Shown here: one piece after another, positions 2,321 through 17,642 of the stretch
Numbering within the stretch: the stretch's first letter is position 1
Layout of the letters: each line of letters opens with the position of its first letter
Notes under the pieces: generated by a model
What the model was told of the DNA's origin: nothing
What the model saw: the letters and a program-made list of their open reading frames with translations, nothing else
Databases searched by the model: none
Virus record (IMG/VR): IMGVR_UViG_3300019854_000029
Location: 1 to 64,000 of that record
Origin: a virus
DNA: 64,000 nucleotides
Direction: 5' to 3' (one strand)
Translations under genes and position numbers: made by a program

Positions 2321-3811
2321 TTACTTGTCGGCCATTGAGCGTTGAAGTGCGGCAACCTGCTTAACGGTCACGCCGAGGAGTAGTGCGATGGTGGGCTGAC
2401 TGTAGCCTTCCTTCGTGTAAAGCAGGGCTTCCATCTTCGGTTCTTGCCCGTGTTCACGCACAGGGATAGCGAGCACATCACGATACGAGCAGACAGCGAC
2501 CGCGCTTTGCATACGCGCCACAAGGTTGCGAGAGCCACTGAGAAGCATGTCGATCTTCCCGTCTCGCATGACAGCGAAACAACGGGATGCGTGACGTTCC
2601 CGGTCCTCTTGAGTTTCCGCTGTTTCAACATCCCGGTAGGTCGCGGCCAGCAGGTTCACGAACTTCGCCACGGGAGGCATGTCCGCTGCGTCGGGGTTTC
2701 GCCGGTTCAGCATGTCGATGAAGTCCATTACCTTACGGTGCCCGTAGGGGAAGTCGATCTTCTCGTCAAAGACTGCGTGCGGGTCGTTGTAGAGCAGGCC
2801 CTTCGTCATCTTCTCGGTCATGTCGTCGGGGTCGTAGGTGGCGACCGCCGTGTAGAGACCTTCGAGGAATACGTCGCCGTCTTGCCCGTCGATCTTCGGG
2901 GTGTGGCTCCACCGCCAGACTTGCTTACCGTCCTTGATGAGCTTGTACACCCACGTGTCGAACCCGAAACGAGTGTCAAGCGTTGCCGTGTAGGTCAGTC
3001 CTTGGAAATCGCGCGTGACGCGGGGCGTTGAAACAGAGTAGATGCTTCCGGTTACCGTGGTGGCCGGGCCGTCATCGTGGCGCTGCATGGTGTAGTTGAT
3101 TGTTTCGCCCGGGAGGTGGGCGGGCGTATAGGTTTCGCCCTTCTCGGGGCCTTCCTCACTGGGAGAAGAACTCTCACCAAAGAGGGGAATAATGTCCTTA
3201 CTGCTAGACCTGCCGAAAAACTCAACGTTCTCGATTTCCGGGGCCTTCATTTGCTCAAAGCTGTATGTCACGCGGCAGCAGAACCCATACTGTCCGGTCG
3301 CAAAGTTATATGCCCGAATACTGTAGTAGTCGCCTTCGGTGAACCATGTGAACGTGTTCGCGTCCAAGTCCCACAGGAGCGAAACAGCGTCCTGAACATG
3401 ATTGTGGGTGAATATGAACGTTTCTGCTGCTTTACGGGTCTTAAAAACTTTGGAGACAGAGAAGCGGTATTCCTTCGGTGTGTCCTTCGAGCGTTCTGCG
3501 CCACCTACACAGAAGCATTCTTTCTTGTCGCGCGAATAGACCAAGTATTCACTAGGAGTCTCATCGACCGATTGCTCAAAGTACTTATAGTCGTCTTGGA
3601 GATATTCAACCGCGCCGATATGTGCACAGTCGCGGATAACGTTTTTAAGGACATTCAGACACTTGTCTGCCTGCGTCCGTTCAGGGTCTTGGAGCAGATA
3701 GTTCAATACGTGGTGAAGATGTAGCGCCCATTGCACGGTGACGTGTTCTAGGACGTATTCTCCGGTTTCAGGGTTCTTCTGGATGGTTGCGTAAACGCCG
3801 CGTTGTCCCAT
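2321..3811 (-). CDS. HTH superfamily, long form A2
   Basis: The track ORF extends to 3907. I moved the start to ATG 3811 because MGQRGVYATI aligns with the A1/A3 N-termini and GGAGG lies 7 nt upstream. It carries the same motifs as A1. Confidence 0.85.
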   Translation of the reverse strand: MGQRGVYATIQKNPETGEYVLEHVTVQWALHLHHVLNYLLQDPERTQADKCLNVLKNVIRDCAHIGAVEYLQDDYKYFEQSVDETPSEYLVYSRDKKECFCVGGAERSKDTPKEYRFSVSKVFKTRKAAETFIFTHNHVQDAVSLLWDLDANTFTWFTEGDYYSIRAYNFATGQYGFCCRVTYSFEQMKAPEIENVEFFGRSSSKDIIPLFGESSSPSEEGPEKGETYTPAHLPGETINYTMQRHDDGPATTVTGSIYSVSTPRVTRDFQGLTYTATLDTRFGFDTWVYKLIKDGKQVWRWSHTPKIDGQDGDVFLEGLYTAVATYDPDDMTEKMTKGLLYNDPHAVFDEKIDFPYGHRKVMDFIDMLNRRNPDAADMPPVAKFVNLLAATYRDVETAETQEDRERHASRCFAVMRDGKIDMLLSGSRNLVARMQSAVAVCSYRDVLAIPVREHGQEPKMEALLYTKEGYSQPTIALLLGVTVKQVAALQRSMADK

Positions 3812-3888
3812 GACGGGGCCTCCAATTCTTTTGGGTGGAGCGATTGTCTTACCGCTAGGAAATGTTTCCTCTCGCCGCGTGAACATGG

Positions 3889-3937
3889 TTAAAAAATCCG
3901 GTCCCACGCGCTGTGCTCAACAGACGCATGGGACCGG
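3889..3937 (-). terminator. Rho-independent terminator after A3
   Basis: 9-bp stem CCGGTCCCA (3898-3906) / TGGGACCGG (3929-3937). On the minus strand it is followed by a U6 run (A-run 3891-3896 on plus). Confidence 0.7.
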
Positions 3938-3974: not shown

Positions 3975-5468
3975 CTACAAGCCGCGCTGGGACGCTGATA
4001 CTTCCTTAACGCTCATGGCAAGAATCAACGCGATACGTTCTTGCGTATAGCCTTCTTTCGTGTAGGCCAAGACGCTTTCTCGGAATGGCCGGTCTTGGGC
4101 TTGCGGGTGAACCAGCGGAGAGTTTGCGAGGTCTTTGTAAGCGATGACGTGCGTGCGAGGCCCAGTGGCCTGTTTCGCTTTCTTCTTGGCTTCTGTCGCG
4201 CCGATAGCCTGCGCGAACACGCCGTTTTGCCAGTCAACGATGAAGTACGTGGTTCTAAGGCGCGTTTTTTCCTGCCGGGTTTCCGCTTTCTCTATGGCTT
4301 TGAGCGTCATTGCAGCGCTGAGTGTTAGGCGTTCAGCTAGGTTCATCTCACCGGCAGACAGTCCTTCACTGCGCGGAACGCTCACGTCACGCACACCCGC
4401 GTAGATGTAGACCTTGTAGGTGTCGAGGAGAAGATGCTTAGCTTTGTCTTGGAACAAGGTCCAGTCGTCGTTGTAGCGTAGACCGTCTTTCACGCCGATC
4501 ATCAACTCATCGCGGTTATCGGCAATATGCCTTGCGGTGGCGCACAGCGACTCGAACACGGCTTCCCTCATGTTCTTATAGGTAGAGGGATTACGGCTTG
4601 TTCTAAACACGGGTTTTTTATCGCGGTAGAACGTGACAACCAAAGTGTCGTAACCGAACCGCTTGTCGAGGACGACCTTGAACGAGGTGGGTTCCCACTG
4701 TTCGTGTTCCTTACCGTGAACAAGGATTTTCTCAATAGTCCCGGTGAGACTGGTTTCCGTGTTTTCTTTGCCTTTCCGGTACTCGATAACCACTGGCAGG
4801 AGCTTGCTCTCATACTCCTCTGGGGGGCGCTGCTCTAAGGGGGTGCGGTAAAGCGGGATTTCAGGGAGCCGGTGGCGTGATTCGCCGTTGATAGCGTTGA
4901 CCACGGCCCGGCGGTCACACATCTGCTCGAACGTGTAAGTCACGGCAGAACAACTCTCAACCTTCTCTAGGCCGAAATTGAACGCGACGAAACTGTAGCG
5001 TTTCCCCGGAGCGGTGAACCACGTGAACGTGTTCGCGTCCATATCCCATAGGAGGTTCTTGCTCATTAAAACGGGAGAGTAGTGGTTGTAGATAGCGTCG
5101 AGAGCTTCCTGTCGAGAATCAAACACTCGCTCATCAAAGTCACGCTCAAACGCGGGTACGTCGCTAGAGAGCCGCATGTTTGCGACTAAAAGTTTTTGCG
5201 TCTTATCTTCCGTGAATAAAGCAGCCCAATCGTCGTGAGCTTCAGCTTCTTCTGCCGAGCACTCTGTGATTGCGTGGATGCTTTCACAGTCCTTGATGAC
5301 TTTCAGTAAGACATCGAGGACTTTATATGGGTCCCAGCCCTGTTGGGGGAGAGACATCATGTGGTGGATTGAGTCATGGCTGATGCTCGTGTTTCCCACT
5401 TCAACGATACGGACAAGTGTTTTCCCGTCTTTGCGTTGGTTAATGGTCGCGTAAATACCTTCCGACAT
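3975..5468 (-). CDS. HTH superfamily, long form A3
   Basis: 497 aa; has the MSEGIYATI, LLWDMDANTFTWF, RFGYDTLV and YTKEGYTQERIALILAMSVKEV motifs. AAGGAAAGAAG lies upstream of the ATG. Confidence 0.85.
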   Translation of the reverse strand: MSEGIYATINQRKDGKTLVRIVEVGNTSISHDSIHHMMSLPQQGWDPYKVLDVLLKVIKDCESIHAITECSAEEAEAHDDWAALFTEDKTQKLLVANMRLSSDVPAFERDFDERVFDSRQEALDAIYNHYSPVLMSKNLLWDMDANTFTWFTAPGKRYSFVAFNFGLEKVESCSAVTYTFEQMCDRRAVVNAINGESRHRLPEIPLYRTPLEQRPPEEYESKLLPVVIEYRKGKENTETSLTGTIEKILVHGKEHEQWEPTSFKVVLDKRFGYDTLVVTFYRDKKPVFRTSRNPSTYKNMREAVFESLCATARHIADNRDELMIGVKDGLRYNDDWTLFQDKAKHLLLDTYKVYIYAGVRDVSVPRSEGLSAGEMNLAERLTLSAAMTLKAIEKAETRQEKTRLRTTYFIVDWQNGVFAQAIGATEAKKKAKQATGPRTHVIAYKDLANSPLVHPQAQDRPFRESVLAYTKEGYTQERIALILAMSVKEVSASQRGL

Positions 5469-5505
5469 GCTGCTTCTTTCCTTTCCGGTAAGCGAAACAG
5501 GTTGC

Positions 5506-5522
5506 GTTCTTATTTAGAGAAC
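5506..5522. promoter_or_regulatory. Palindromic operator-like site upstream of A3
   Basis: GTTCT-tatttag-AGAAC, 38-55 nt upstream of the A3 start. It shares AGAA/TTCT half-sites with the palindrome at 46793-46807 and a TATTTAG core with the recurring upstream element. Confidence 0.3.
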
Positions 5523-5623
5523 CACCTAGACGGGCAACAAACTCCGGTTAAAACAGGGGAGTGCCCGTGCCGCACGTGAATGCGACACAGGCACCCGCAC
5601 TGTGTATTTCTGGTTCTAGCCCT

Positions 5624-6013
5624 TCACCGGGTCTTGACGGTTCTTGTCGGGCCTGATTCCAGCCCAAATAGTCGCCATCCAGACGAGTCAACCATAAGGC
5701 AATCAAGCACATGGCTAATGGTCAACGGCTCATGCAAAAAACATCTGACAGTCCTAGCCGTACCACCATCAAAAGAACGCCCCTTACAGTCGTCAAAAAT
5801 CTCAAACGTCACTCGCACCCAACGGAAGATGTCTGTTGGCTGAGGTCTCGTCTGAAAAATGCTCACCCGGTAGTTAATCGGAGAAGCGCTGGGCTTTGTT
5901 GGGTCAGGCAGGGAAAGCACGCCGCCCGTGTTGATAGCGCCGCGCGGCCTTTGCCACTCCATCACGGCAGTTCCGGCCCGCGTATCCACGACCTCACGGT
6001 TAGAAAACATCAT
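5624..6013 (-). CDS. hypothetical protein
   Basis: Track ORF 5624-6019 uses a GTG start. ATG 6013 has AGGAAG 5 nt upstream. The start region overlaps the stop of the upstream gene (GTGA). No recognisable motif. Confidence 0.55.
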   Translation of the reverse strand: MMFSNREVVDTRAGTAVMEWQRPRGAINTGGVLSLPDPTKPSASPINYRVSIFQTRPQPTDIFRWVRVTFEIFDDCKGRSFDGGTARTVRCFLHEPLTISHVLDCLMVDSSGWRLFGLESGPTRTVKTR

Positions 6014-6015
6014 GG

Positions 6016-6318
6016 TCACTTCCTAGAGCATTCTTTCGCGTGAGAGTACAAGGTGTTCATGTCTTGCAGTGATACGCCTTGGACGCTGCTAGTGTCTTGG
6101 ATTTGCCGGAGAACGTGGTCACTGATTTCCCCTTGGCTTTTCTCGACCATGCACTGTGAGACGCTGGCGCTGTAGCCGCCGAACTCTAAGACACCGCCCG
6201 GCACGTATTCTTTAGCCCACGGGTTGTATTGGACGAAAAGGTAAACGAGGGCCGCTAAGACGGCGAGCAAAATAAGTGTTTTCACTAGGCCGATAGTCTT
6301 GAAGATGAGCTTAACCAA
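6016..6318 (-). CDS. small membrane-anchored protein
   Basis: The track ORF runs to 6354 (TTG). An internal TTG at 6318 is preceded by GAAAGGA. The hydrophobic KTLILLAVLAALVYLFV indicates a single TM or signal anchor. The start is uncertain. Confidence 0.55.
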   Translation of the reverse strand: MVKLIFKTIGLVKTLILLAVLAALVYLFVQYNPWAKEYVPGGVLEFGGYSASVSQCMVEKSQGEISDHVLRQIQDTSSVQGVSLQDMNTLYSHAKECSRK

Positions 6319-6340
6319 AACACGGGTCCTTTCTAGAGAA

Positions 6341-6377
6341 AGCCTCTCTACCAACCGGGTTGACTGGTAGAGAGGCT
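6341..6377 (-). terminator. 13-bp perfect hairpin downstream of rsr
   Basis: AGCCTCTCTACCA (6341-6353) pairs with TGGTAGAGAGGCT (6365-6377) around an 11-nt loop. On the minus strand it is followed by UUCUCU. Confidence 0.6.
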
Positions 6378-6430
6378 AGTCATGTTCTTTCCTCCACGGT
6401 TAAACACTTAAAGCTATGCGCCTGTCGCGC

Positions 6431-8017
6431 TTATTCCCACGGCCACTTTTGGGTGATGCCACGTTCAAGGAGAGGAATCATGTTGAAAGCGTTATCGGTG
6501 AGGCCACCGAACGTCCATCGCAAGGGCCGTGAGGCTCCCTGTGCTACGGCGTATCCGTCGAGGTTCCACGTGAACACGGGAGTGTTCTCAGCGAAACTGT
6601 CGAGAACGTTATCGACTGAGCGGCCCCAAGAGTTCATTGAGGTCTGTTCGTCAGTCAAAATGATGACGCGATCATACGTTTCACCGTTCGCGTATGCGTA
6701 CTCGATAGCGCGGTCAGTGTAAGTTCCGCCGTAAGAGCTGGGCATGGCTTCCGTTGCGCGCAAAAGGTCGCGAGTATCTACTCGAATATCCTTTGCGTTT
6801 TCTGCGAAAGCGACGACGCGAACGTTTTCGCCTCGGATAGCGAGCGCAGCCGCAAACACGTTAGCAGCGTCCTGACGAGTCAAACTAGAGCGCTCAGACA
6901 AGGCAGCGTGCATTGAGCCGGACGTATCAAGGAGAACGAGAGTACGGCCCTTGAGTGCGGGAACCGCCGACAAAGAGGCGTTAGCTGCCCGCTGCAAAGC
7001 AGGAGCGAAATCTAACGGCGTGTTCTTGTAGGCAGAGTAGAACGCGACGGGGAGAGTACGCGAGGCGCGTGCTTCTTCACGGTCTCCAATACGCTTTGAC
7101 ACGGTGTCTAGCAAACTGTCGGGAACGTCCTCTGTTTCTGCGATACGACGCAAGCTCATGCGCAGCGCCGTGTAGCCCATAAAAGGAACAAGGGACTCCC
7201 ACACGCTCGCGGGAACCTTACGCAAAGCACTGGAAACAACTTCAATACTCAAAGCTGCTTCCTTAATGACTTTCTCACTATCGAGGCCAGTTAGGGCCTC
7301 GATCTGCTTCTCGACAGGCAGAGACAGGAACGCTCGACGCGCACGAATAGTCTCCAATCCCTCAGCAGAGTTAGCTTTTCCGTATGACTCATCGAGGACG
7401 AGGCGAACAAGGCGAGACTGTGCCTCATTACGGGGGGAGAGGTGTACGAGGTTGATAACGTCACGCAGCTTGACGGTGCCTGAGTTCATGCGCCCGTTCC
7501 ACTTCAAGTACGAGCGCTCATTCAAGAGCGCCTTGAGAGCGTCGGACACGCCTCGACGCACACACGAGGGGACGTTTCGACCGTAGTTGCTCAGCCACCC
7601 GGCAAGGAAATCGCCGGTTTCGTCCAAACGGCCAATGGAAGCCCTAACGATCTCGCGATTGTAGCCGGAAAGCCCAGCTTCAAGGCGAGCCTTAACGACA
7701 CTCATTGCGACGATCATGGGGACAGAACGTAGGCCAACATCTTTACGGAGCCAACCCACAAGCCCGAGAACCCATTCAGGAGAGTTCAATACTTCTTCTT
7801 CGCGTGCGAGGCGCTGAATACGCTCAGTGCGTTCGTTAGCGGTTTCGTAGAACGTGTCCTCATTCAGTGAGGTGACGGCAGCGAGAAACAGTTCGCTCTT
7901 AGGGGTGCGGGTATAACCCAAGGCACCTTCATGAGTGAGAGCAACGCGGTCTGTGGTAGCGACCGGCGTGGTTGCAGTGTTTTTAGGGCGAGCGGTTCGC
8001 GTATTCATGCGCGACAT
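6431..8017 (-). CDS. rsr: Ro60-related protein (Rsr): TROVE domain + von Willebrand A domain
   Basis: The N-terminal part is TROVE-like (HEGALGYTRTPKSELFLAAVTSLNEDTFYE...). The C-terminal vWA has a complete MIDAS (LLDTSGSM ... GGTYT ... LTDEQ). I set the start at ATG 8017 (GGAGG 5 nt upstream); the track start is 8029. Confidence 0.85.
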   Translation of the reverse strand: MSRMNTRTARPKNTATTPVATTDRVALTHEGALGYTRTPKSELFLAAVTSLNEDTFYETANERTERIQRLAREEEVLNSPEWVLGLVGWLRKDVGLRSVPMIVAMSVVKARLEAGLSGYNREIVRASIGRLDETGDFLAGWLSNYGRNVPSCVRRGVSDALKALLNERSYLKWNGRMNSGTVKLRDVINLVHLSPRNEAQSRLVRLVLDESYGKANSAEGLETIRARRAFLSLPVEKQIEALTGLDSEKVIKEAALSIEVVSSALRKVPASVWESLVPFMGYTALRMSLRRIAETEDVPDSLLDTVSKRIGDREEARASRTLPVAFYSAYKNTPLDFAPALQRAANASLSAVPALKGRTLVLLDTSGSMHAALSERSSLTRQDAANVFAAALAIRGENVRVVAFAENAKDIRVDTRDLLRATEAMPSSYGGTYTDRAIEYAYANGETYDRVIILTDEQTSMNSWGRSVDNVLDSFAENTPVFTWNLDGYAVAQGASRPLRWTFGGLTDNAFNMIPLLERGITQKWPWE

Positions 8018-8044
8018 AATTGCCTCCATTATTGGCGTGTTTAT

Positions 8045-8138
8045 TTAGAAAAAAAGAGGTGGCGTTAGAGGAAAGACGAACTAGGTGAAAAAACATATCC
8101 ATCATGTAGTAACCCAGTTCAGCGCTTCTAACGCCACC
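8045..8138 (-). ncRNA. Y-RNA-like two-helix stem-loop with U-tract (alternatively an oversized terminator of the tRNA gene)
   Basis: 12-bp perfect stem (8058-8069 / 8127-8138). A second 9-bp helix (8078-8086 / 8112-8120) has one non-Watson-Crick pair, which is G.U on the minus strand but A.C on the plus strand. The apical loop is 25 nt, and UCUUUUUUU follows on the minus strand. The element starts 3 nt after the tRNA 3' end and ends 28 nt before the rsr start. Confidence 0.45.
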
Positions 8139-8140
8139 AG

Positions 8141-8231
8141 CGGAGCGAGTGGGAGTCGAACCCACGGAACGAGTTGTTTCCCGTTCACTTCATTAGCAGT
8201 GAAGCCCTTTCGGCCACTCAGGCACCGCTCC
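8141..8231 (-). tRNA. tRNA-Ser (anticodon GCU), class II, CCA not encoded
   Basis: The 91-nt manual fold has acceptor GGAGCGG/TCGCTCC (one G.U) and a 3-bp D stem with a GG loop. The anticodon stem is CTTCA/TGAAG with loop CTGCTAA. A long variable arm forms a GAACGGG/CTCGTTC stem. The T arm is GTGGG-TTCGACT-CCCAC and the discriminator is G. Confidence 0.9.
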
Positions 8232-8332
8232 TTTGGGGTGCCCCCTCCCCAAGGAAAGCAGAGTCAGTATTGACAGCAGAGAGGGGGCGTATTGAGTTAT
8301 GTTGTTGTGAACTGCGCACACCTGAATGATGT

Positions 8333-8356
8333 GTACCTAAATTGTAGGAGTATGGC
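8333..8356 (-). promoter_or_regulatory. Recurring upstream element, copy 1 (upstream of tRNA-Ser)
   Basis: The minus strand reads GCCATACTCCTACAATTTAGGTAC, about 20 of 24 identical by eye to 43564-43587 and 58029-58052. It lies 102 nt upstream of the tRNA 5' end in the same orientation. Confidence 0.5.
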
Positions 8357-8394
8357 AGTTCGTTAAGCAAGCTACTTTGGTGTGAACTAGGCCA

Positions 8395-11300
8395 CTAGCG
8401 AGCGTCGTTCAGGCCACGAGCAACCGCACCCATCGCACGCTTACCCCCACCACCAAGCAACTGGCCCACACCAAACAATGCGCTCGCGGTGAACCCAAAC
8501 GCGCTACGCCACGTCTTACCGAGGAACCCGATATCGTTGCGCTTCCACGTGTCAGTCGTCCAGTCCCACGTGCGCTTACGACCACGCGACAGGTAGCGGG
8601 TAGCGGCGTACATGGCTGCTTGCGTGTCGTCATAGCGGCGCATACCGGTCGGGACACCGTGTTCTTCACTCCATGTGGAGCGGTCGAACTCTTCCCCGGC
8701 AATCGTGATGTGTTGGAGAGTGGGGAAAGCAGCGAACATTTGCCCGATGCTCTTACGGCCCTCGAACCCGAGGTCAGGGCACACATACGACATGTAGAAC
8801 TGCCATGAGTCGAACGACATTCGGCGTAGGTTGTGCATCTCGCGAATCATCCGCCAGTTCGCGATAGGAGCGATGTTGCTTGACCGTACTGCTTCACGCA
8901 GGTACTCGGGGATAGCCTCAATATCCCATTCCTCAGCGACCTTAGTCTGGTAGGCGACACCGTTGAGGATAACGAGGCCACCGGCCACGCCCAGACGCTT
9001 CACTCGGCCCCAGTCGCCAACCCACTGGCGCATATCCTGATAGATCGCGTCCTGAACACCATCAGGGGTGAGTTCTTGCGCGTGGATAGTGCGAGGCGTG
9101 CCCTTGTTGAACGAGAACCCGCCGTACTGGTTCGGTGTGACAGGGCTGGTGGAGTAGTCCCATCCGGGAGCGGGTGCCGTCACGTCGTTCATGCGAGCAT
9201 TCACCGGCACGGGAGCGTCATCGGGAATGTCAGGCATGATGGGAGCCGGAGCGCTCACAACCGGCATAGCAGGAGCGACGGCAGGCTTAGGCTCTTCACC
9301 CCACCCGCCGACGGTTTCCACCTTCCCGGCGGGCGCAGTATCAGTCAGTGACGCGAACGCCGAGTCATCCCAAGCGTCCTCTTCTTCCATGCGCAACGGG
9401 TCCGCAGCGTCCTCTTCGGGGAACTCATTGGGATACACGCGGGCAAACAGTTCGCGCTCAGCGTTCACTGGGTTTTCCGAACGGTTAAACGCCGCATAGA
9501 ACTCAGCAGACGAGTACATGTACTTCGGACGCAAGTCCACAAGCCACTCTTGCCACGTCCCCGGATAACCGGCTTCCTTCACGACGAGGTTCGCCGCGTC
9601 GGAAAGTTTCTGTAGGGTTGCAGCGGCCTCAGCGCGAGACACTCCCGCGCGTTCAAGGTAGCCAATGAACCCCAAGGCCGGGTCAAGTCGCCCATCGTCA
9701 AGGGACACGTCCTTACGGACAGAATCAACGTCCACGCCCGCGCGCTTCATGTATTCCACGGAGAACGGCCAGCAGTACCCGTCCTCTTCGGCTTCCGCAT
9801 ACAGGAGACCGGGACGGAACGGGAGAGCAGTTTTAGCTAACTGCTCATCGCCCTTCACGAGAGCGCGCTCAATGTTCGGCCCGTTGAAGTCTTGCACGTA
9901 AGCAAACGCGCGCACCGTCTCAGAGAGCTTGTCATGCATGAACCCGTTCGGGGAACCCTGATTGAGGTACTGGGGGCGTTCCTTGTTGTAGCCGATAAAC
10001 GCATCAGCAGCAGTCAGGGACGAGGCGAACGAGAACACGAAATTGTCCATGTTCCCCAGCTTCACGGTCACGCCCTGAGTACGGTTCAACGGGGGCACGA
10101 ACGTTGAAACAGGAGTAGGAGCAACCTCGTGTTGACCAATGAGGAAGATATCGCTCACAGCCTGCTCGCGGTTCTTATAGTTCGCGTTACCAATCGTCGT
10201 GATCTTGTCCGCGCTCATACGGATACACTCACTGAACATTGAGGCCCACAAGTGAACCTCAGTGATCGCATCCTTGGGTTTCTTCTTCTCATCAAACCCG
10301 GACGCTTCCCACGTGTCGTAGGAGTTCACGTAGTCAGCGGGGCGCGCATATTTAGCGAGCTGCACAAAGAACCGGCTCATCGACAAGCCGACGTTACTGA
10401 TCTCATCGAAAACGAACGACACGCCCTTCTTGCCGCCCAACTGTTCGGCAACGCCCTCACCGTTCGTGCGAGCAAGGAGAATGCCCATAGCGAGAATCAT
10501 GTACCGGATGTAAGCGACCGTACCCAGCAGACCGGGGTAGCTTTCCCCTTGGAACCCGAGGGGCCTCAAGTAGGACGGGACGTGAGCCATGCGGCCTAGT
10601 TTTTCTACCTGATCGGCACCGAAATGCCCAAACAAGTCCGTGCCCTTCTCGCTACCGAAGTCAGGGCCGTTAATGACGAACGCATTCGGGTTGATCTCTA
10701 GCAGGAGGGAAGCCATGTCGGGCTTATTGTCCGCAAGACCGAGGGCCTTACCGGCAATGAGCATTGCCGCAAGGTACGCCTGAGTCATGAGGCCCTTACC
10801 GGAGCGAGAACCAGCTAGAACAACATGCAGGCCGCTCTTAGCGAACGCGGACAGTGCTTTGGACGTGTCAACGATTGTTTCGTCTAGTCCGAGGCCGAAA
10901 ATCGCGACGGTTTCAGCCCGCAGGTTCGCGCCTTGACTCATCTTGGCTTCAAGAATCTTGTAGGCGAAAATCGGGGCGGCGTTAGCGAGAATCGTATCCA
11001 CGTCATAACGGTGTTCCCACATGAGGCTGCTACGAACCGGCGCATACGACCGGCTCTTATTACCCGCAGCCACACCGTAAGCGCGTTCCACGGACTCTTT
11101 AGCGATGTCGTCACCTAGTTCCTCGTGGCGCGTGAGGGAACGCAGTTTGAGCTTGGTGAGGGTTGCGCGACTGTTGACCTCGAATGAGGACACGAGGAAA
11201 CACGTTGTCATCGCATTGTAGATACGTTCCAACGCGCCTGAAACACTATTCTTCACGCTCTTAGACGTGTAATCCTCGCCGTCGCTCGCGGCCCGCAGGA

Positions 11301-12888
11301 GGAGTTTCTTCACGACAGCTTGAAGCATCGTCTCCAAGCTCGGCTTCACCTCTTGTTCGAGGTAGGTTTCCCACTTGGAAGCCGCAGCGAGGCGCGGATA
11401 CGACTCCGGTGACGCGGGGTCAAAACCGCGCCCGAAAGCGTATTCGAGCATCTTGTAGGGGAAGTAGAACTCGGTGTCTTTCGCATACACCTTGCCGTTA
11501 GAGTCTTTCCCGTTTACGACGATCTCAGCGATCTCGTTAATGTCCCTCGTGGGCATGGCTTCCAACTGGGGGACGAGGCCCTTGATGACCTTCCATGTTT
11601 CCATCGTCACCGAGTCCGGTAGGCGCATGAACGCGCGGTCATCGTCGTTGATCGCCAGCACGCGGCCCTTAGAGTCCTTCCCGTCCGCGCCCGTGTTTTC
11701 GGGGGCGAGAATACCGAAAGGCTTAATGACCTCGTAGCCGGAGGAGAAGATTCGCGTGTATTCTTCCGCGATCATTTCAACGTGGGAGAAAATCATGCCG
11801 TTAAAGAATGACAAGGCTTCATCGGGAACAGTCTTGTCAGGCTCACGTTCCCCGTTGAGAGCGTCAATCACTTCTTGAATCGTGATGCTCTTAGAAACCG
11901 TGTCGAACCCGAGTTTTTCACGTTGCTCTTTCGGCAGGGCATGGAGATACAACGCGGCAGACAGGGCTTCGTTTTCACAGTCACACATCACGCCGTGGAA
12001 CTGTTCTTTCGTGAGCTGCCCGAGAACACTGCTGCTTGCAACGACAGGGAACCATTCGGGCTGAGCGTCAAGGGGGGAGAGGTCCCACGTGAGCGCGGCA
12101 ATAGCGTCAAGGTACACGCCGCCACGCTGGGCAGCGGCCTTCAACAGTCGCAACAGGCTCATGCGCAGTGGGGAAGCCTCAAACTCAGCAAGACGCGCAG
12201 CCAACCCGTCATCTTCGGGCGCACGGAACGCATCGACCGTCTCAACGGCTCCCTCTTCTTCGGGCATACGCGGGCGCGTACACAACCCCGACAGGAACGT
12301 CTCTAGCGTCCCGCCGATCATGTCCGCAGAATACGTTTGAGGTGAGAGCTGGAAACTGTTCATCACCATGTCATAGGGCTTCACTTGCACGTACTGGCCC
12401 ATTTGAGACAAGTCAACAGCGAACTGCAAGGGGACAGGCGCATCCAACAGGAGCGGGCGAGCATCCACGCCACCGCCTTGAGCTTCCGCATAAGCCTCAC
12501 GCTCACGGCGCAACGCGCCCGCAAGCAGTTCAATCCCCATCATGCTCTCATCGGGAATACGGTAAATCGCGCCAATACGAGTGCCCTCAGTGAAAAACCG
12601 CGACAAATCCACGCCCTCAAACATGCTTTCCGGCGCGACAATCACTTCCAACGCGCCGAACTGCTTATACGACAACGCGCGCAGCGGAGAACGACGCGAA
12701 TCAGCATTCTTCGGGTTAGCAGGAGTCAACGCACCCTTATTCGCCCCATGCTTTTCTACATACACGCCGTCATGGGAAATAATCAGGCTCTTCACCGTGT
12801 TCGGAGTCCACGAACCGTAATCCGTGCCCTCACCGTCAGTGACCCAATGACCACCCAACGCCTTCAACACGTCATCAAACGACACCAT
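8395..12888 (-). CDS. giant (~1497 aa) protein with central P-loop NTPase-like motifs, possibly TraG/VirD4-type
   Basis: A single uninterrupted ORF. The track start is TTG 12930; I prefer ATG 12888 (MVSFDD). Motifs are VVLAGSRSGKGLMT (Walker-A-like, GKG as I recall in TraG/VirD4 coupling proteins) and VSFVFDEIS (Walker-B-like). There is a Pro/Ala-rich linker near residue 1230. Confidence 0.8.
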   Translation of the reverse strand: MVSFDDVLKALGGHWVTDGEGTDYGSWTPNTVKSLIISHDGVYVEKHGANKGALTPANPKNADSRRSPLRALSYKQFGALEVIVAPESMFEGVDLSRFFTEGTRIGAIYRIPDESMMGIELLAGALRREREAYAEAQGGGVDARPLLLDAPVPLQFAVDLSQMGQYVQVKPYDMVMNSFQLSPQTYSADMIGGTLETFLSGLCTRPRMPEEEGAVETVDAFRAPEDDGLAARLAEFEASPLRMSLLRLLKAAAQRGGVYLDAIAALTWDLSPLDAQPEWFPVVASSSVLGQLTKEQFHGVMCDCENEALSAALYLHALPKEQREKLGFDTVSKSITIQEVIDALNGEREPDKTVPDEALSFFNGMIFSHVEMIAEEYTRIFSSGYEVIKPFGILAPENTGADGKDSKGRVLAINDDDRAFMRLPDSVTMETWKVIKGLVPQLEAMPTRDINEIAEIVVNGKDSNGKVYAKDTEFYFPYKMLEYAFGRGFDPASPESYPRLAAASKWETYLEQEVKPSLETMLQAVVKKLLLRAASDGEDYTSKSVKNSVSGALERIYNAMTTCFLVSSFEVNSRATLTKLKLRSLTRHEELGDDIAKESVERAYGVAAGNKSRSYAPVRSSLMWEHRYDVDTILANAAPIFAYKILEAKMSQGANLRAETVAIFGLGLDETIVDTSKALSAFAKSGLHVVLAGSRSGKGLMTQAYLAAMLIAGKALGLADNKPDMASLLLEINPNAFVINGPDFGSEKGTDLFGHFGADQVEKLGRMAHVPSYLRPLGFQGESYPGLLGTVAYIRYMILAMGILLARTNGEGVAEQLGGKKGVSFVFDEISNVGLSMSRFFVQLAKYARPADYVNSYDTWEASGFDEKKKPKDAITEVHLWASMFSECIRMSADKITTIGNANYKNREQAVSDIFLIGQHEVAPTPVSTFVPPLNRTQGVTVKLGNMDNFVFSFASSLTAADAFIGYNKERPQYLNQGSPNGFMHDKLSETVRAFAYVQDFNGPNIERALVKGDEQLAKTALPFRPGLLYAEAEEDGYCWPFSVEYMKRAGVDVDSVRKDVSLDDGRLDPALGFIGYLERAGVSRAEAAATLQKLSDAANLVVKEAGYPGTWQEWLVDLRPKYMYSSAEFYAAFNRSENPVNAERELFARVYPNEFPEEDAADPLRMEEEDAWDDSAFASLTDTAPAGKVETVGGWGEEPKPAVAPAMPVVSAPAPIMPDIPDDAPVPVNARMNDVTAPAPGWDYSTSPVTPNQYGGFSFNKGTPRTIHAQELTPDGVQDAIYQDMRQWVGDWGRVKRLGVAGGLVILNGVAYQTKVAEEWDIEAIPEYLREAVRSSNIAPIANWRMIREMHNLRRMSFDSWQFYMSYVCPDLGFEGRKSIGQMFAAFPTLQHITIAGEEFDRSTWSEEHGVPTGMRRYDDTQAAMYAATRYLSRGRKRTWDWTTDTWKRNDIGFLGKTWRSAFGFTASALFGVGQLLGGGGKRAMGAVARGLNDAR

Positions 12889-13362
12889 GCTTAGTGTCAC
12901 CTCTCTACTCAAGCCCCACACTAGGGGCAAAGAAAGTTGCTAACCTACAACACTCGAAAACATGGGGGAGAGGGCATAAAAAAGCGTGAACCGCACGGCC
13001 CATCGAGGCTAAGACCGCGCGGCTCACGCCGTGTATTTATCACTGTGAAAAAACTGGAAGCAACACAACCGCCAGCACTCACATAACTAAGCCTACAGCC
13101 ACCACCATGTTCTGTCAGGAACACGCCTATAAAGCACGAGGCCCGCGCGGCCCACCAGAAGTGGAGGGGGCACCGCGCGAGCCTTAAAACGACACAAACA
13201 CAAGGAAAATGAGGAAACCCCGTGCCCATGTCGCCATGCGATCTCAATACAGAGGACACGAAACACGATCATCGCCACCGCGTTTCTTGTTCTCACACGT
13301 AAGCATACAAGCAACACGCCGTAACGCAAATCACTTTACTGAGTAAAGACTGTAAATAGGCG

Positions 13363-14083: not shown

Positions 14084-14207
14084 TAAAGAAGCGAAACGAT
14101 AACGCAGTAACTCAGCCACAGTAGAGGGAAGAGAGAAAAGCACAAGCAAAGCCACCCGGAGGGGCTTTTTGTGCCTAAAACGCTTTAACTTGAGGCGTTT
14201 AACAGTC

Positions 14208-15170
14208 ATGTACGGGACTTTATTTGTCTATGTGGGACCTATGGGCGCGGGTAAGACGCAGGATGCGGCTTCATGTTTTCTGGATTCCAGTGTTGTCTCA
14301 CTGAGTGCTATTCACCGTGAAGCGTATGGCTCCCCGGTGGTTGATCGCCAGTATAAAGACGCAGTGACGCGGCGCGCGTTTAAGAAACTATTCGCATTGT
14401 TAGAGCGCGGTTTGGACGCGGTTTTCATAGCGCCTAACTGTTCTCGCATGTCTCGCGCGCACTTATATCGGGAGGTGAAAGCACGGTTCCCGGGCGTGCG
14501 GGTGGTTGTCGTGTTGGTGCATGTACCGCTCGCAGAGGCTATCAAGCGTTCTAACAATGTGAGCGCGTCCCATGTTCGAGACGAGTATCTAGGGCTGCAA
14601 ATCCCGCGCGTAGGCGTGGACTGCGACACGTTCACGCTGCAAACACCCGACTTCTCGGCCTACCTGCCGGAAATCAACCACTCGTACCTCGCGCCTCATA
14701 ACAGCCCGTATCACGTGGAGTCCATTGCTGAGCATGTTGCCCTCACGGTACATAACGCGCATAAAGACACCACCCGGCCCGCATTAGTGGATATCGCAGC
14801 GTTCCACGACCTCGGTAAGAGCGTCGCACGCACAGCACAAGACCTATCCAGACCATCATCGGCGTATATCGCATCCATTTACGGCAGTCACGACCAGTAC
14901 GCAGGCCATGAGAACGTGAGCGCCGTCTACTGGATGATCGCCCACAAGGACTGTCTTGACGCGCACGCCTTGTTCGTTGCGGAAGCAATCTTCCACCATA
15001 TGCAAGCCCATCGTGGTTTTACCGACAAGTACATCAACCGCCACCACCTCACCGGCGATCTGTTGGAAACCGCACGCGCTTTCGCGCAAATCGACAGTAG
15101 CTCGAAAATCGTAGACAAAGACATCTTGGACACGTACATGAGGCTGCGGGCAGCGGAAAAACAAGGCTAA
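14208..15170 (+). CDS. P-loop kinase (polynucleotide-kinase/AAA_33-like) fused to an HD phosphohydrolase domain (K1)
   Basis: The track start is TTG 14169; ATG 14208 gives MYGTLFVYVGPMGAGKT (Walker A). The C-terminal half carries NSPYHVESIAEH ... AAFHDLGKS ... HHMQAH, which are HD-domain metal ligands. It is a paralog of 22838-23821. Confidence 0.8.
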   Translation: MYGTLFVYVGPMGAGKTQDAASCFLDSSVVSLSAIHREAYGSPVVDRQYKDAVTRRAFKKLFALLERGLDAVFIAPNCSRMSRAHLYREVKARFPGVRVVVVLVHVPLAEAIKRSNNVSASHVRDEYLGLQIPRVGVDCDTFTLQTPDFSAYLPEINHSYLAPHNSPYHVESIAEHVALTVHNAHKDTTRPALVDIAAFHDLGKSVARTAQDLSRPSSAYIASIYGSHDQYAGHENVSAVYWMIAHKDCLDAHALFVAEAIFHHMQAHRGFTDKYINRHHLTGDLLETARAFAQIDSSSKIVDKDILDTYMRLRAAEKQG

Positions 15171-16418: not shown

Positions 16419-17642
16419 TTAGGACTCAAAACTCCTTAGCGCGCTTCGTCCCTCTCGGGCGAGAAGCCACGCGATAGCCGCAACCTTCCGGTAGCGCCCG
16501 TCATAGTCATCATGGGCCGCGCCAAGAGAAAGGTTCTTATCCGACAAGTGCGACTCCTTGAACAAGGAAACAAAGGCGTATTCCTCATCGTTACGGGGAT
16601 ACCGGTTAGCTATCGACCTAATCGAATCATCCGCAAGAATCATGCCCTGATAGCCGGGGATACTGCCTCCGGCTACAAGACGCACAGCAACCTTCTCAAA
16701 CGCCTTCCACGGGGCAACAATGCCCGTCCGAGAGTGTTCCGCGCAGGCAGCGTCATACATCATTTCCGCGATCTCCCCGGACGTAACCGGATCGCCCTCA
16801 ATGAGGTCGAACTCTGAGCGAGTGTCATCATACGCGAACCACGAGTTAAGAACACGCCCGTTTTCACGCGAAGTCGCCGCATCCACCTCATCGGAACGAC
16901 AGAACCCAGCGGACGAGAACGCAGGCAAAGAACCTTCTTTACGCGACTGCGCTTCCACGAACCTACGGGCCTTCATGAACTCACGCAGGAAAGCCTCAGT
17001 GGGGTCGTGGACATCTTGCGACAAAACAAAAGACGAACTCGCCGCCATCTTGTATGCCCACCACGCGGTATGCACGGCAGTGCGCACTACCGCAGTGTCC
17101 CGAGAGTCACTAGGCGGCGCTTCAGGAATGCTGATACTCCCCGCATATGCACTATCTTGCTTATGCGTTGCGTACACCTGCGGTTCGCGCACATCAGCGC
17201 TCCCATACAACGACAATGAGAAACCATTCTCCACGCCAAGCGTTTCCCGAATCCTACGGATAGTGCGACGGCACCGCATCGCAATACGGTTCACATCTTC
17301 CTCAGTCAACCCCCACATGATTGTGCAGTTCAACAAAACCGCCGCATAGTACGTCATGGCCGTCGCGTTAGCAGGCTTGAACTGTTCGGGGAAAGTGAGA
17401 GAAATATCGGGCTCAATCGCCGCGAGGTCTCCCTCTATCTTCCACTTCAGCTTGTTCATGCTTGTCGCAGCCTGAACCGAGTACGTTTGCCGTCTAGGAC
17501 TACTAGAAACCTCTAGAACCCCCACAAAACGCGGCTTCTCCCAGTCCGGCTCCTTGTAGAACACATTCCAAAAACGCCGATCACCATAAGGGCGCGGCCT
17601 AGACACAGGCTTCAACGTGAGCCTTTCAGGTAATAACAGCAT
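16419..17642 (-). CDS. family B paralog, long form (B6)
   Basis: 407 aa. The N-terminus MLLLPERLTLKP and the central IAMRCRRTIRRI...LSLYG align with the ~210-236-aa B family. It has an extra ~190-aa C-terminal extension. Confidence 0.8.
   Translation of the reverse strand: MLLLPERLTLKPVSRPRPYGDRRFWNVFYKEPDWEKPRFVGVLEVSSSPRRQTYSVQAATSMNKLKWKIEGDLAAIEPDISLTFPEQFKPANATAMTYYAAVLLNCTIMWGLTEEDVNRIAMRCRRTIRRIRETLGVENGFSLSLYGSADVREPQVYATHKQDSAYAGSISIPEAPPSDSRDTAVVRTAVHTAWWAYKMAASSSFVLSQDVHDPTEAFLREFMKARRFVEAQSRKEGSLPAFSSAGFCRSDEVDAATSRENGRVLNSWFAYDDTRSEFDLIEGDPVTSGEIAEMMYDAACAEHSRTGIVAPWKAFEKVAVRLVAGGSIPGYQGMILADDSIRSIANRYPRNDEEYAFVSLFKESHLSDKNLSLGAAHDDYDGRYRKVAAIAWLLAREGRSALRSFES

What the first reader, a model, noticed from the sequence alone, without database searches (positions are those of the whole stretch)
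6341..8356. Ro60/Rsr gene with an adjacent Y-RNA-like stem-loop joined 3 nt downstream of a canonical tRNA-Ser
Seen: the protein has a TROVE-like N-terminus plus a vWA domain with a full MIDAS, which is the Ro60/Rsr architecture. Directly upstream on the same strand lies a canonical class II tRNA-Ser(GCU). Three nucleotides later comes a 12-bp + 9-bp interrupted helix with a 25-nt loop and a U-tract. The only non-Watson-Crick pair of helix 2 is G.U on the gene strand and A.C on the other. Established: bacterial Rsr binds Y RNAs encoded next to rsr, these Y RNAs pair a Ro-binding stem with a tRNA-like module, and Ro orthologs occur in some actinophages. Inference: this locus may express a modular tRNA-Ser + Ro-binding-stem RNA, or a Y RNA processed from a tRNA precursor. 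The trivial alternative is that the stem is only the tRNA terminator.
Basis: partly seen in the sequence, partly recalled or inferred. Interest (0 to 1): 0.75.

Follow-up and report, generated by a model that had tools for sequence, protein, structure and literature searches.

The report
Phage Ro60 gene with tRNA-linked Y RNA
An uncultured phage carries a Ro60-type RNA-binding protein gene preceded by a genuine serine tRNA and, two bases later, an 81-base hairpin related to the small "Y RNAs" that partner Ro proteins, so this is a new example of a known protein-RNA pair, not a new kind of system.

Summary
On the minus strand lie a canonical class II tRNA-Ser(GCU) (8231-8141), a 2-nt spacer, an 81-nt two-helix hairpin (8138-8058) with a U7 tract, and a Ro60 gene (about 8017-6431).

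The protein is a Ro60 by sequence and by predicted fold. The top 13 PDB matches are all Ro60 structures.

The hairpin is not merely a terminator.
- A sister phage group, with Ro 62-64% identical, keeps the same tRNA-Ser + hairpin + Ro layout. It has four both-sided base-pair changes in each helix and only a weak U tract.
- Covariance models built without any window sequence find this hairpin as the only hit in the 64 kb window (E 0.007 and 0.0008).
- The same models find more than 100 related RNAs. Nearly all are on the Ro strand, beside Ro genes of actinophages and Actinomycetota.
- The long members of this family carry T and D arms and are YrlA-type Y RNAs. The window's RNA is a short form that lacks the tRNA-like domain, and Rfam's YrlA model misses it.
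- Spacers of 0-7 nt between a tRNA and a Y RNA recur in several lineages. This suggests release by tRNA-processing enzymes.

Expression, processing and Ro binding remain untested. Verdict: a new member of a known kind, of moderate interest.

The parts
8341..8370 (-). Candidate promoter for the tRNA / Y RNA / Ro unit: TTGCTT (8370-8365), 18-nt spacer, TACAAT (8346-8341).
   Evidence: Read directly from the sequence. The sister group has TTGCGC-N18-TACACT at the equivalent place. The strict sigma-70 scan did not list it, so this part is inferred and weak.
8240..8288 (-). GC-rich leader hairpin (GCCCCCUCUCU...GGGGAGGGGGC) just 5' of the tRNA.
   Evidence: Predicted in the 271-nt fold. A comparable hairpin precedes the tRNA in the sister group. 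Function unknown.
8141..8231 (-). Canonical class II tRNA-Ser(GCU) with a G discriminator at 8141 and no encoded CCA.
   Evidence: ARAGORN. Rfam tRNA 52.1 bits, E 1.7e-09. Conserved, with compensatory changes in its stems, in the sister group.
8139..8140 (-). 2-nt spacer (CU) between the tRNA discriminator and the Y RNA stem. The sister group has CA here.
   Evidence: Similarly short tRNA-Y spacers (0-7 nt) occur in other lineages.
8058..8138 (-). Short-form Y RNA-like element.
- Lower helix: 8138-8127 with 8069-8058.
- 5' internal loop AGCGC: 8126-8122.
- Upper helix: 8121-8112 with 8086-8077.
- Apical loop: 8111-8087, beginning UUACUAC and holding a 4-5-bp mini-hairpin.
- 3' internal loop UCUUUCC: 8076-8070.
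   Evidence: Fold z = -5.4. It is the only hit in the window of models R1 (20.2 bits, E 0.007) and R2 (25.6 bits, E 0.0008), both built without window sequences. Compensatory changes against the sister group. Family-wide covariation.
8048..8057 (-). U tract (UCUUUUUUUC) directly after the lower helix. It is a probable intrinsic-termination or 3'-end signal specific to this lineage.
   Evidence: U6-U7 in the near-identical relatives. Absent or weak in the sister group and in 56 of 62 short family members.
6431..8029 (-). Ro60 / Rsr-type protein gene: TROVE HEAT-repeat ring plus a vWA domain with MIDAS. The probable true start is ATG 8017, with the Shine-Dalgarno GGAGG at 8027-8023.
6341..6377 (-). 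13-bp hairpin (AGCCUCUCUACCA...UGGUAGAGAGGCU) followed by UUCUCU, about 55 nt downstream of the Ro stop codon. Possible terminator of the unit.
   Evidence: Read from the sequence. The scan lists a shorter version on the plus strand. Not examined further.

Best explanation
This is a phage-borne Ro60-Y RNA module. The Ro60 gene is preceded on the same strand by a real tRNA-Ser(GCU) and, 2 nt after its discriminator base, by an 81-nt Y RNA of a short form.

What the short form is. It has the Ro-binding stem / internal-loop module of YrlA-type Y RNAs, but a 25-nt apical loop takes the place of the tRNA-like domain.

Shown here:
- The protein is a Ro60.
- The RNA belongs, by sequence and structure, to a family found next to Ro genes on the Ro strand.
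- Both helices are kept by compensatory change.

Inferred:
- tRNA, Y RNA and Ro mRNA are made from one promoter about 110 nt upstream of the tRNA.
- RNase P cuts at the tRNA 5' end.
- A 3' tRNA-processing nuclease, RNase Z or similar given that no CCA is encoded, cuts after G8141. This frees the tRNA and creates the Y RNA 5' end.
- The U7 tract ends a share of transcripts and so sets the Y RNA 3' end. Read-through supplies the Ro mRNA, because there is no room for a separate promoter in the 40 nt before the start codon.
- The Y RNA then binds the phage Ro60. By analogy with D. radiodurans, Salmonella and Thermus phage phiLo, it gates or tethers Ro to a host exoribonuclease such as PNPase during infection.
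For: Protein.
- vWA_Ro60 scores above its cut-off. PHROG 850 matches at 1e-38.
- phiLo Ro60 matches at 2.6e-28, and D. radiodurans Rsr also matches.
- The top 13 Foldseek PDB matches are Ro60 structures over 506-557 aligned columns.

RNA.
- Stable fold, z = -5.4.
- The sister group (Ro 62-64% identical) has the same tRNA-Ser(GCU) + hairpin + Ro order.
- There are four both-sided pair changes in each helix, and three Watson-Crick pair types at one position within the sister group.
- Model R1 was built from 26 distant RNAs only. It hits the window hairpin alone (E 0.007) and the sister-group hairpins at 36-40 bits, E about 2e-7.
- Model R2 has no window or near-identical sequences. It gives 25.6 bits, E 0.0008, again as the sole hit.
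- 86 hits in phage loci and 41 in Actinomycetota genomes are all on the Ro strand.
- Across the family, 83.6% of cells are paired, against 58% when shuffled and about 42% when slid.
- Long family members carry T and D arms and match Rfam YrlA at sub-threshold scores. One example is L066, at 42.4 bits and E 3e-8.

Precedents.
- Y RNAs are encoded upstream of Ro and processed from one precursor. D. radiodurans Yrn1 and Yrn2 are co-transcribed with tRNA-Asp (PMC4201824).
- phiLo Ro60 binds two upstream-encoded Y-like RNAs and host PNPase (PMC12135203).

Tight tRNA-Y junctions recur in BRock, Alone3, Atuin, the L057 group and Brevibacterium oceani.
Against: - No RNA-level data exist. Transcription, processing sites and Ro binding are all inferred.
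- Rfam YrlA and Y_RNA give no hit, even at E up to 10.
- The published Ro-contact motif (GNCGAAN0-1G, or 'CGAA') is not matched exactly. The window has GAAGCGCUGA at the homologous place.
- The covariance-model E-values for the window itself are modest, and the calibration is rough.
- The family alignments were fitted to the model's structure, which inflates the pair counts.
- The strict promoter scan found nothing.
- The opposite strand folds nearly as well.
Confidence: 0.72

Rival explanations
1. The hairpin is only the intrinsic terminator of the tRNA gene and has no role with Ro.
For: In the window, a perfect 12-bp lower helix is followed at once by U7. This should terminate a fraction of transcripts.
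Against: - The sister group keeps both helices and the unpaired motifs, but has only UUUU placed 5 nt after the stem.
- Only 6 of 62 short family members have a U tract.
- A terminator has no need of the conserved unpaired sequences (A/U)GCG, GUUACUUC and CUC, yet they align with the family.
- A fully efficient terminator would leave the Ro gene with no promoter, since only 40 nt lie between the stem and the start codon.
Confidence: 0.08
2. The element acts mainly in cis as a 5' leader of the Ro mRNA. Ro60 binds it to autoregulate termination, read-through or translation, and no free small RNA matters.
For: - The hairpin lies in the Ro 5' leader, 40 nt from the start codon, with a U tract that could work as an attenuator.
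- In many distant loci a further hairpin that would sequester the Shine-Dalgarno-like GAGGGG sits just before the Ro start.
Against: - Family members also occur downstream of Ro and between tRNAs far from any start codon. Examples are Atuin 4251-4833, Brevibacterium L100 1367-1593 and 5355-5486, and sister-group L029 4606-4704.
- In M. smegmatis the upstream Y RNAs accumulate as free Ro-bound RNAs (PMC4201824).
- This rival is compatible with the main explanation and does not exclude it.
Confidence: 0.1
3. tRNA-Ser and the hairpin stay joined as one stable RNA of about 175-190 nt. In it, a real tRNA substitutes in cis for the tRNA-like domain of YrlA.
For: - The 2-nt junction and the tRNA-Ser(GCU) + hairpin pairing are conserved between groups whose Ro proteins differ by 38%.
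- The window has no YrlA-type RNA and no other tRNA.
- In related loci the tRNA-like modules often carry a Ser-GCU-like anticodon loop, CUGCUAA.
Against: - The tRNA is fully canonical, so it should be a normal substrate for 3' processing. Such processing would separate the two parts.
- In YrlA the tRNA-like domain is inserted at the top of the Ro-binding stem, not placed beside it.
- Elsewhere, different tRNAs (Asn, Leu, Pro, Lys, Trp, Thr, Arg, Phe) abut Y RNAs on either side. This fits a processing role better than a specific partnership.
Confidence: 0.07
4. It is a chance hairpin with no function.
For: Short intergenic hairpins are common, and the reverse strand folds as well.
Against: - 0 of 200 shuffles fold as well.
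- There are compensatory changes in both helices.
- It is the sole hit of independent models in 128 kb of searched sequence.
- Its position is conserved.
Confidence: 0.02

Closest known systems
Actinobacterial and mycobacteriophage YrlA / YrlB Y RNAs (Chen et al. 2014, PMC4201824; Rfam RF02553)
   Same: - Encoded just upstream of the Ro60 gene on the same strand.
- The 5' and 3' ends pair into a long stem with an internal loop carrying a GCG-containing motif.
- The conserved GUUACUUC-like sequence at the top of the stem corresponds to 'gaAUGCuu' at the 5' end of the Rfam YrlA consensus.
- Each species has several Y RNAs, at least one of which is a plain long hairpin.
   Different: - There is no T arm, D arm or acceptor-like stem, so it is not a YrlA, and RF02553 does not detect it.
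- The motif reads GAAGCGCUGA, not GNCGAA.
- A real tRNA sits 2 nt upstream, and a U7 tract follows.
Deinococcus radiodurans Yrn1 / Yrn2 with tRNA-Asp
   Same: [quoted passage not shown] This is the direct precedent for co-transcription of a tRNA and a Y RNA.
   Different: - Different sequence family.
- A cellular gene, not a phage gene.
- I have not checked the spacing there, or whether tRNA-processing enzymes set the Y RNA ends.
Thermus phage phiLo Ro60 with Yrl1 / Yrl2 (PMC12135203; PDB 9KOP, 9L5Y)
   Same: - Closest solved protein: 2.6e-28 by sequence and the top structural match.
- A phage Ro60 with stem-bulge-stem Y-like RNAs encoded upstream of its gene.
- Shown in vitro to bind those RNAs and host PNPase.
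   Different: - Only about 23-24% identity.
- Two Y-like RNAs with a CGAA bulge.
- That paper mentions tRNA only twice, and I did not check for a linked tRNA.
Eukaryotic Y RNAs (Rfam RF00019)
   Same: About 80-110 nt, with terminal stem, internal loop and upper stem, a 3' oligo-U tail, and Ro60 as the partner.
   Different: - No sequence similarity detected.
- Pol III transcripts with La binding.
- Conserved bulged GGUCCGA helix.

Membership tests
Ro60 / TROVE (Rsr) protein | Ring of HEAT-like helical repeats (TROVE domain). | tested here: met
   AlphaFold model has pLDDT 82. The top 13 Foldseek PDB matches are Ro60 structures aligned over 506-557 columns, TM 0.57-0.72. Sequence matches to phiLo Ro60 at 2.6e-28 and to Rsr 2NVO at 4.6e-4. 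Pfam TROVE itself is below its cut-off, 16.8 against 23 bits, though homologues at 50-63% identity carry PF05731.
Ro60 / TROVE (Rsr) protein | C-terminal vWA domain with a MIDAS site. | tested here: met
   PF25045 vWA_Ro60 scores 43.5 bits against a cut-off of 27.7. D368-x-S370-x-S372, T436/T438 and D460 are invariant among 14 homologues.
Ro60 / TROVE (Rsr) protein | Binds Y RNA and misfolded RNA. | not testable with these tools
   Needs pull-down or EMSA.
Bacterial / phage Y RNA (broad sense) | Encoded next to the Ro60 gene on the same strand. | tested here: met
   The hairpin ends 40 nt upstream of the Ro start on the same strand. All 86 + 41 family hits are on the Ro strand.
Bacterial / phage Y RNA (broad sense) | The 5' and 3' ends pair into a long stem interrupted by an internal loop, and the structure is kept in evolution. 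| tested here: met
   Fold. Compensatory changes. Family covariation score 0.544 against 0.16 shuffled and about 0.12 slid. Caveat: the alignment was fitted to the model.
Bacterial / phage Y RNA (broad sense) | Ro-contact motif on the 5' strand (GNCGAAN0-1G, or 'CGAA'). | tested here: inconclusive
   At the homologous place the window has GAAGCGCUGA. The family shows GCG followed by AA, CA, UA, CU or CC. The GCG core is kept in most members, but the published motif is not matched exactly.
Bacterial / phage Y RNA (broad sense) | Accumulates as a small RNA bound and stabilised by Ro60. | not testable with these tools
   No expression data are available.
YrlA (Rfam RF02553) | Internal tRNA-like domain: T arm, D arm and acceptor-like stem. 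| tested here: not met
   The apical region is a 25-nt loop with a 4-5-bp mini-hairpin and has no GGUUCGAAUCC or UAGCUCA elements.
YrlA (Rfam RF02553) | Match to the Rfam covariance model. | tested here: not met
   No hit at E up to 10 in 5500-9500, nor at E up to 5 in the whole window. Long relatives score 31-42 bits against a gathering score of 69.
Ro-linked short-form RNA family defined here (models R1, R2) | Significant match to a model built without the candidate. | tested here: met
   R1 gives 20.2 bits, E 0.007. R2 gives 25.6 bits, E 0.0008. Each is the sole hit in the window on either strand. E-values are rough.
Intrinsic terminator | A stable stem directly followed by a U tract, conserved in relatives. 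| tested here: inconclusive
   Present in the window (12-bp stem + U7) and its near-identical relatives. Not conserved in the sister group, which has U4 placed 5 nt away, nor in 56 of 62 short family members. The simple scan did not list it because of its large 'loop'. It probably terminates here, but that does not explain the conservation.
Canonical tRNA-Ser (class II) | Cloverleaf with a long variable arm, GCU anticodon and G73. | tested here: met
   ARAGORN. Rfam 52.1 bits. Stems are kept by compensatory change in the sister group.

The most novel reading that the evidence does not exclude
Ro-encoding actinophages build 'tRNA-punctuated' Y RNA arrays, in which tRNAs serve as processing handles for Y RNAs. 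In this lineage the arrangement is reduced to one real tRNA-Ser(GCU) joined to one short Y RNA.

In this reading the real tRNA takes over the job of the missing tRNA-like domain. The Ro / Y RNP would then work on tRNAs during infection, for example in surveillance or salvage of tRNAs damaged by host anticodon nucleases.

This would tie the long-unexplained tRNA mimicry of bacterial Y RNAs to a concrete phage-host conflict.
Probability: 0.12. Interest if true: 0.7.

Novelty: new member of a known kind. Interest (0 to 1): 0.38.

Why it matters
Phage Ro60 proteins and Y RNAs are known, but few examples have been studied, and current models (Rfam YrlA) miss the short forms. This locus and its relatives give three things.

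1. A compact natural unit, tRNA - 2 nt - Y RNA - Ro60, that is easy to test for processing and binding.
2. A sequence and structure signature that finds more than 100 Ro-linked RNAs in actinophages and Actinomycetota. The signature is: lower stem, GCG loop, upper stem, GUUACUUC, U-rich CUC loop.
3. Evidence that Y RNAs are routinely embedded in phage tRNA arrays with spacers of 0-7 nt. This bears on how they mature, and on why tRNA-like modules of Y RNAs get annotated as tRNAs in phage genomes.

It does not reveal a new type of system.

Tried and rejected
- Near-identity DNA search of 5500-9500 against 50,697 phage records found no match. The window's lineage is known only from IMG/VR contigs.
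- Those close relatives are 97-99% identical, so they are useless for covariation. They differ only in the apical loop and in U-tract length.
- Rfam at relaxed thresholds gave no Y_RNA or YrlA hit.
- The strict sigma-70 scan found no promoter, and the terminator scan did not list the hairpin.
- RNAalifold on the first MAFFT alignment recovered only the lower helix, because the 3' strand of the upper helix was misaligned by one column. I therefore set the consensus pairs from per-sequence folds and let Infernal realign.
- Comparing fold energies of the two strands did not discriminate between them.
- The genome-collection scan gave no relative closer than 47%, so the host stays unidentified. 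All hits but one MAG are Actinomycetota.
- PHROG, Pfam and PDB searches of neighbouring ORFs found no RNA-repair genes (RtcB, ligases) beside Ro.
- Two reviews on bacterial Y RNAs (PMC10870794, PMC6047535) are not held. What they say about phage tRNA arrays is therefore unchecked.
Full report
**What is in the sequence**

On the minus strand, ARAGORN finds one tRNA in the whole 64 kb window: tRNA-Ser(gct) at 8231..8140. Rfam's tRNA model scores it 52.1 bits at 8231..8141. It is a normal class II tRNA with a long variable arm and a G discriminator (G8141). No CCA is encoded.

Two bases later (C8140, U8139) an 81-nt hairpin begins, spanning 8138..8058.
- Lower helix: 12 bp, perfect, GGUGGCGUUAGA / UCUAACGCCACC.
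- Internal loop: asymmetric, AGCGC on the 5' side and UCUUUCC on the 3' side.
- Upper helix: 10 bp with two wobble pairs.
- Apical loop: 25 nt, starting UUACUAC and holding a small hairpin.
- Tail: UCUUUUUUUC at 8057-8048.

The fold has an MFE of -35.7 kcal/mol and z = -5.4, and no shuffle out of 200 folds as well. Two details differ: the spacer is 2 nt after the discriminator, and the upper helix can be drawn with 10 pairs.

The complementary strand folds almost as well, at -34.7 kcal/mol. The strand is assigned by context, not by energy.

**The protein**

The ORF at 6431..8029 matches as follows.
- Pfam vWA_Ro60 above its cut-off, and TROVE below its cut-off.
- PHROG 850, 'RNA-binding protein', at 1e-38.
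- The Ro60 of Thermus phage phiLo at 2.6e-28 over nearly its full length, and D. radiodurans Rsr more weakly.

An AlphaFold model built on 14 homologues has a mean pLDDT of 82. Its 13 best PDB matches are all Ro60 structures: phiLo, Xenopus, human and D. radiodurans. They align over 506-557 columns with TM 0.57-0.72. After them come isolated vWA domains. The MIDAS residues are invariant in the homologue alignment.

The likelier start codon is ATG 8017. The Shine-Dalgarno GGAGG lies 5 nt upstream, the homologues begin MARMNT, and the 98%-identical cluster representative is 528 aa long.

**Relatives**

The window matches no GenBank phage at the DNA level. It has eight near-identical IMG/VR contigs of 62-123 kb. 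These are too similar to be informative.

A protein search found many Ro60 proteins at 45-64% identity. A profile scan of viral contigs then returned 79 loci.

A sister group of 21 loci, with Ro 61-64% identical, has exactly the same order: a 90-nt tRNA-Ser(gct), a 2-nt spacer, a 77-78-nt two-helix hairpin, then Ro.

Between the window and this group, four pairs in the upper helix and four in the lower helix changed on both sides, and pairing was kept throughout. Within the sister group, one upper-helix position shows U-A, A-U and G-C. The tRNA stems also carry compensatory changes.

The sister group's hairpin is followed by CCCACUUUUG, not by a U tract.

**A wider family**

The regions upstream of more distant Ro genes share a signature. 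These include Streptomyces, Gordonia and Arthrobacter phages at 33-37% identity, and many IMG/VR contigs. The signature runs:
- lower stem;
- (G/A)(U/A)GCG(N)(A/U)G;
- upper stem;
- (G)UUACUUC;
- apical region;
- upper stem;
- a U-rich loop ending CUC;
- lower stem.

The elements come in two sizes. Short forms are 65-85 nt. Long forms are 115-150 nt, and their apical region holds a T arm, an acceptor-like stem-loop and a D arm.

The long forms are YrlA-type Y RNAs. Rfam RF02553 hits them at 31-42 bits. That is below its gathering score of 69, but the E-value reaches 3e-8 in a local search. The Rfam consensus starts with 'cggCgaAUGCuu', which corresponds to the GUUACUUC region.

**Independent test of membership**

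I built model R1 from 26 distant short forms, with no window or sister-group sequence.
- In the whole window, on both strands, its only hit at E up to 10 is 8134..8062 on the minus strand: 20.2 bits, E 0.007, with all 14 modelled pairs formed.
- It hits the sister-group hairpins at 36-40 bits, E about 2e-7.
- It gives 86 hits at E up to 0.01 in 43 phage loci, all on the Ro strand.
- It gives 41 hits in Actinomycetota genome loci, again all on the Ro strand and mostly within 600 nt upstream of Ro.

A second model, R2, was built from 78 hits. It excludes the window and its near-identical relatives. It gives 25.6 bits, E 0.0008, again as the only hit.

On the 105-sequence alignment, 83.6% of cells are paired. 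The figure is 57.9% in shuffles and about 42% when partners are slid. Thirteen of 14 pairs show both-sided changes. The covariation score is 0.544, against 0.16 and about 0.12. The alignment was fitted to the structure, so these numbers lean towards it. The E-values are rough.

**Terminator or Y RNA?**

In the window, the lower helix plus U7 should terminate some transcripts. But only 6 of 62 short family members have five or more U in the 8 nt after the stem, and the sister group does not. Conserved unpaired motifs have no role in termination.

Only 40 nt separate the stem from the Ro start codon. Ro expression therefore probably needs read-through from upstream.

A plausible promoter, TTGCTT-N18-TACAAT at 8370-8341, lies upstream of the tRNA. 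The sister group has a counterpart, TTGCGC-N18-TACACT. The strict scan did not call either one.

**tRNA linkage**

Tight junctions recur in other lineages.
- BRock: tRNA-Asn, 5 nt, long Y RNA.
- Alone3: tRNA-Asn, 3 nt, long Y RNA.
- Atuin: short Y RNA, 3 nt, tRNA-Trp; and short Y RNA, 3 nt, tRNA-Thr.
- The L057 group: tRNA-Leu, 2 nt, long Y RNA.
- Brevibacterium oceani: tRNA-Pro, 2 nt, Y RNA, 5 nt, tRNA-Lys, 2 nt, Y RNA; and tRNA-Arg, 0 nt, long Y RNA, 3 nt, tRNA-Phe.

Different tRNAs sit on either side of the Y RNA. This fits tRNAs acting as processing signals, so that RNase P and the tRNA 3' endonuclease define the Y RNA ends.

Chen et al. (PMC4201824) report three relevant points. D. radiodurans Yrn2 is made as a polycistronic precursor with tRNA-Asp and Yrn1. 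M. smegmatis YrlA and YrlB come from one precursor upstream of rsr. Each species studied has a tRNA-like Y RNA plus a plain long-hairpin Y RNA.

The phiLo study (PMC12135203) shows a phage Ro60 binding two upstream-encoded Y-like RNAs and host PNPase.

**Conclusion**

This is a phage Ro60 gene with a short-form Y RNA that is joined to, and probably matured together with, a genuine tRNA-Ser(GCU).

It is not a YrlA, because it has no tRNA-like domain and no RF02553 hit. Its putative Ro-contact motif departs from the published consensus.

Shown here are homology, structure conservation and genomic association. Expression, processing sites, termination efficiency and Ro binding are inferred.

I rate it a new member of a known kind, of moderate interest. 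The more novel reading is that the real tRNA replaces the tRNA-like module, and that the RNP acts on tRNAs during infection. That reading is not excluded, but it has no direct support.

Noticed in passing
L002 2283-2356 (GenBank OR725492 10920-10993). Also L065, L066, L070, L072, L074, L076, L084, L086, L087, L089, L090 and L099, about 100-180 nt upstream of Ro.: Streptomyces phage Alone3 gene 36 is annotated as a 74-nt tRNA-Ser(gct). Its Rfam tRNA score is only 29.5 bits. It is the 5' half of a long YrlA-type Y RNA. ARAGORN makes the same kind of call (Ser-gct, Asn-gtt, Ile-gat, Met-cat) in many Ro loci. The tRNA-like modules of Y RNAs are probably being annotated as tRNAs in phage genomes.
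   Followed up: partly
L003 (Arthrobacter phage Atuin) 1949-2018, 2259-2366, 4251-4323, 4403-4546, 4555-4695 and 4703-4833. L100 (Brevibacterium oceani) 1367-1436, 1521-1593, 2375-2440 and 5355-5486.: Some genomes carry arrays of four to seven Y RNA-like elements interleaved with tRNA genes on both sides of the Ro gene, with spacers of 0-7 nt.
   Followed up: partly
L029 4606-4704, L031 4604-4702: The sister group has a second, larger Y-like element between tRNA-Tyr and tRNA-Gln, downstream of Ro. It has a 12-bp lower stem and an ACGCGAAUG loop containing CGAA. The model hits are weak (E 0.03-0.19). The window has no counterpart and no downstream tRNA array.
   Followed up: partly
window 8017-8029: The mechanical ORF starts at ATG 8029, which overlaps the GGAGG Shine-Dalgarno. 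The real start is more likely ATG 8017, giving 528 aa. This matches the homologues' N-termini and the 528-aa cluster representative P0001.
   Followed up: yes
window 6341-6377: A 13-bp perfect inverted repeat (AGCCTCTCTACCA ... TGGTAGAGAGGCT) lies just downstream of the Ro stop codon and overlaps the TTG start of the next ORF (6016-6354, a small protein that looks membrane-bound). It may be the terminator of the Ro unit.
   Followed up: no
window 8395-12930. Also 809-2305, 2321-3907, 3975-5468, 16419-17642 and 55491-57854.: A 1511-aa ORF lies directly upstream of the tRNA. It and several other large ORFs have no PHROG, Pfam or PDB sequence match. This phage lineage is poorly charted.
   Followed up: partly
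window 14169-15170 (+): A 333-aa protein has an N-terminal AAA_33 P-loop kinase domain (2.7e-08) and no PDB sequence match. I could not tell whether it is a polynucleotide kinase-type RNA-repair enzyme.
   Followed up: partly
e.g. L066 about 2465-2500, and many loci L065-L099: In GC-rich relatives, a hairpin CUUCCCCUCC...GAGGGG plus a U run lies directly before the Ro start codon. It would sequester the Shine-Dalgarno-like GAGGGG. It could be a terminator or a translational control element between the Y RNAs and Ro.
   Followed up: no
long-form elements in L066, L084, L087, L096, L099 and L002, and the short form at L003 4251-4323: The hairpin after GUUACUUC (the 'V arm') often has a 7-nt loop, CUGCUAA or CUGUUAA. 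This is a perfect anticodon-loop signature for Ser-GCU or Asn-GUU. The real tRNA beside the window's Y RNA is also Ser-GCU. This may be a coincidence or a trace of common origin.
   Followed up: no
window 8240-8288 (-): A stable GC-rich hairpin lies in the leader between the candidate promoter and the tRNA 5' end. The sister group has an analogous one. Function unknown.
   Followed up: no
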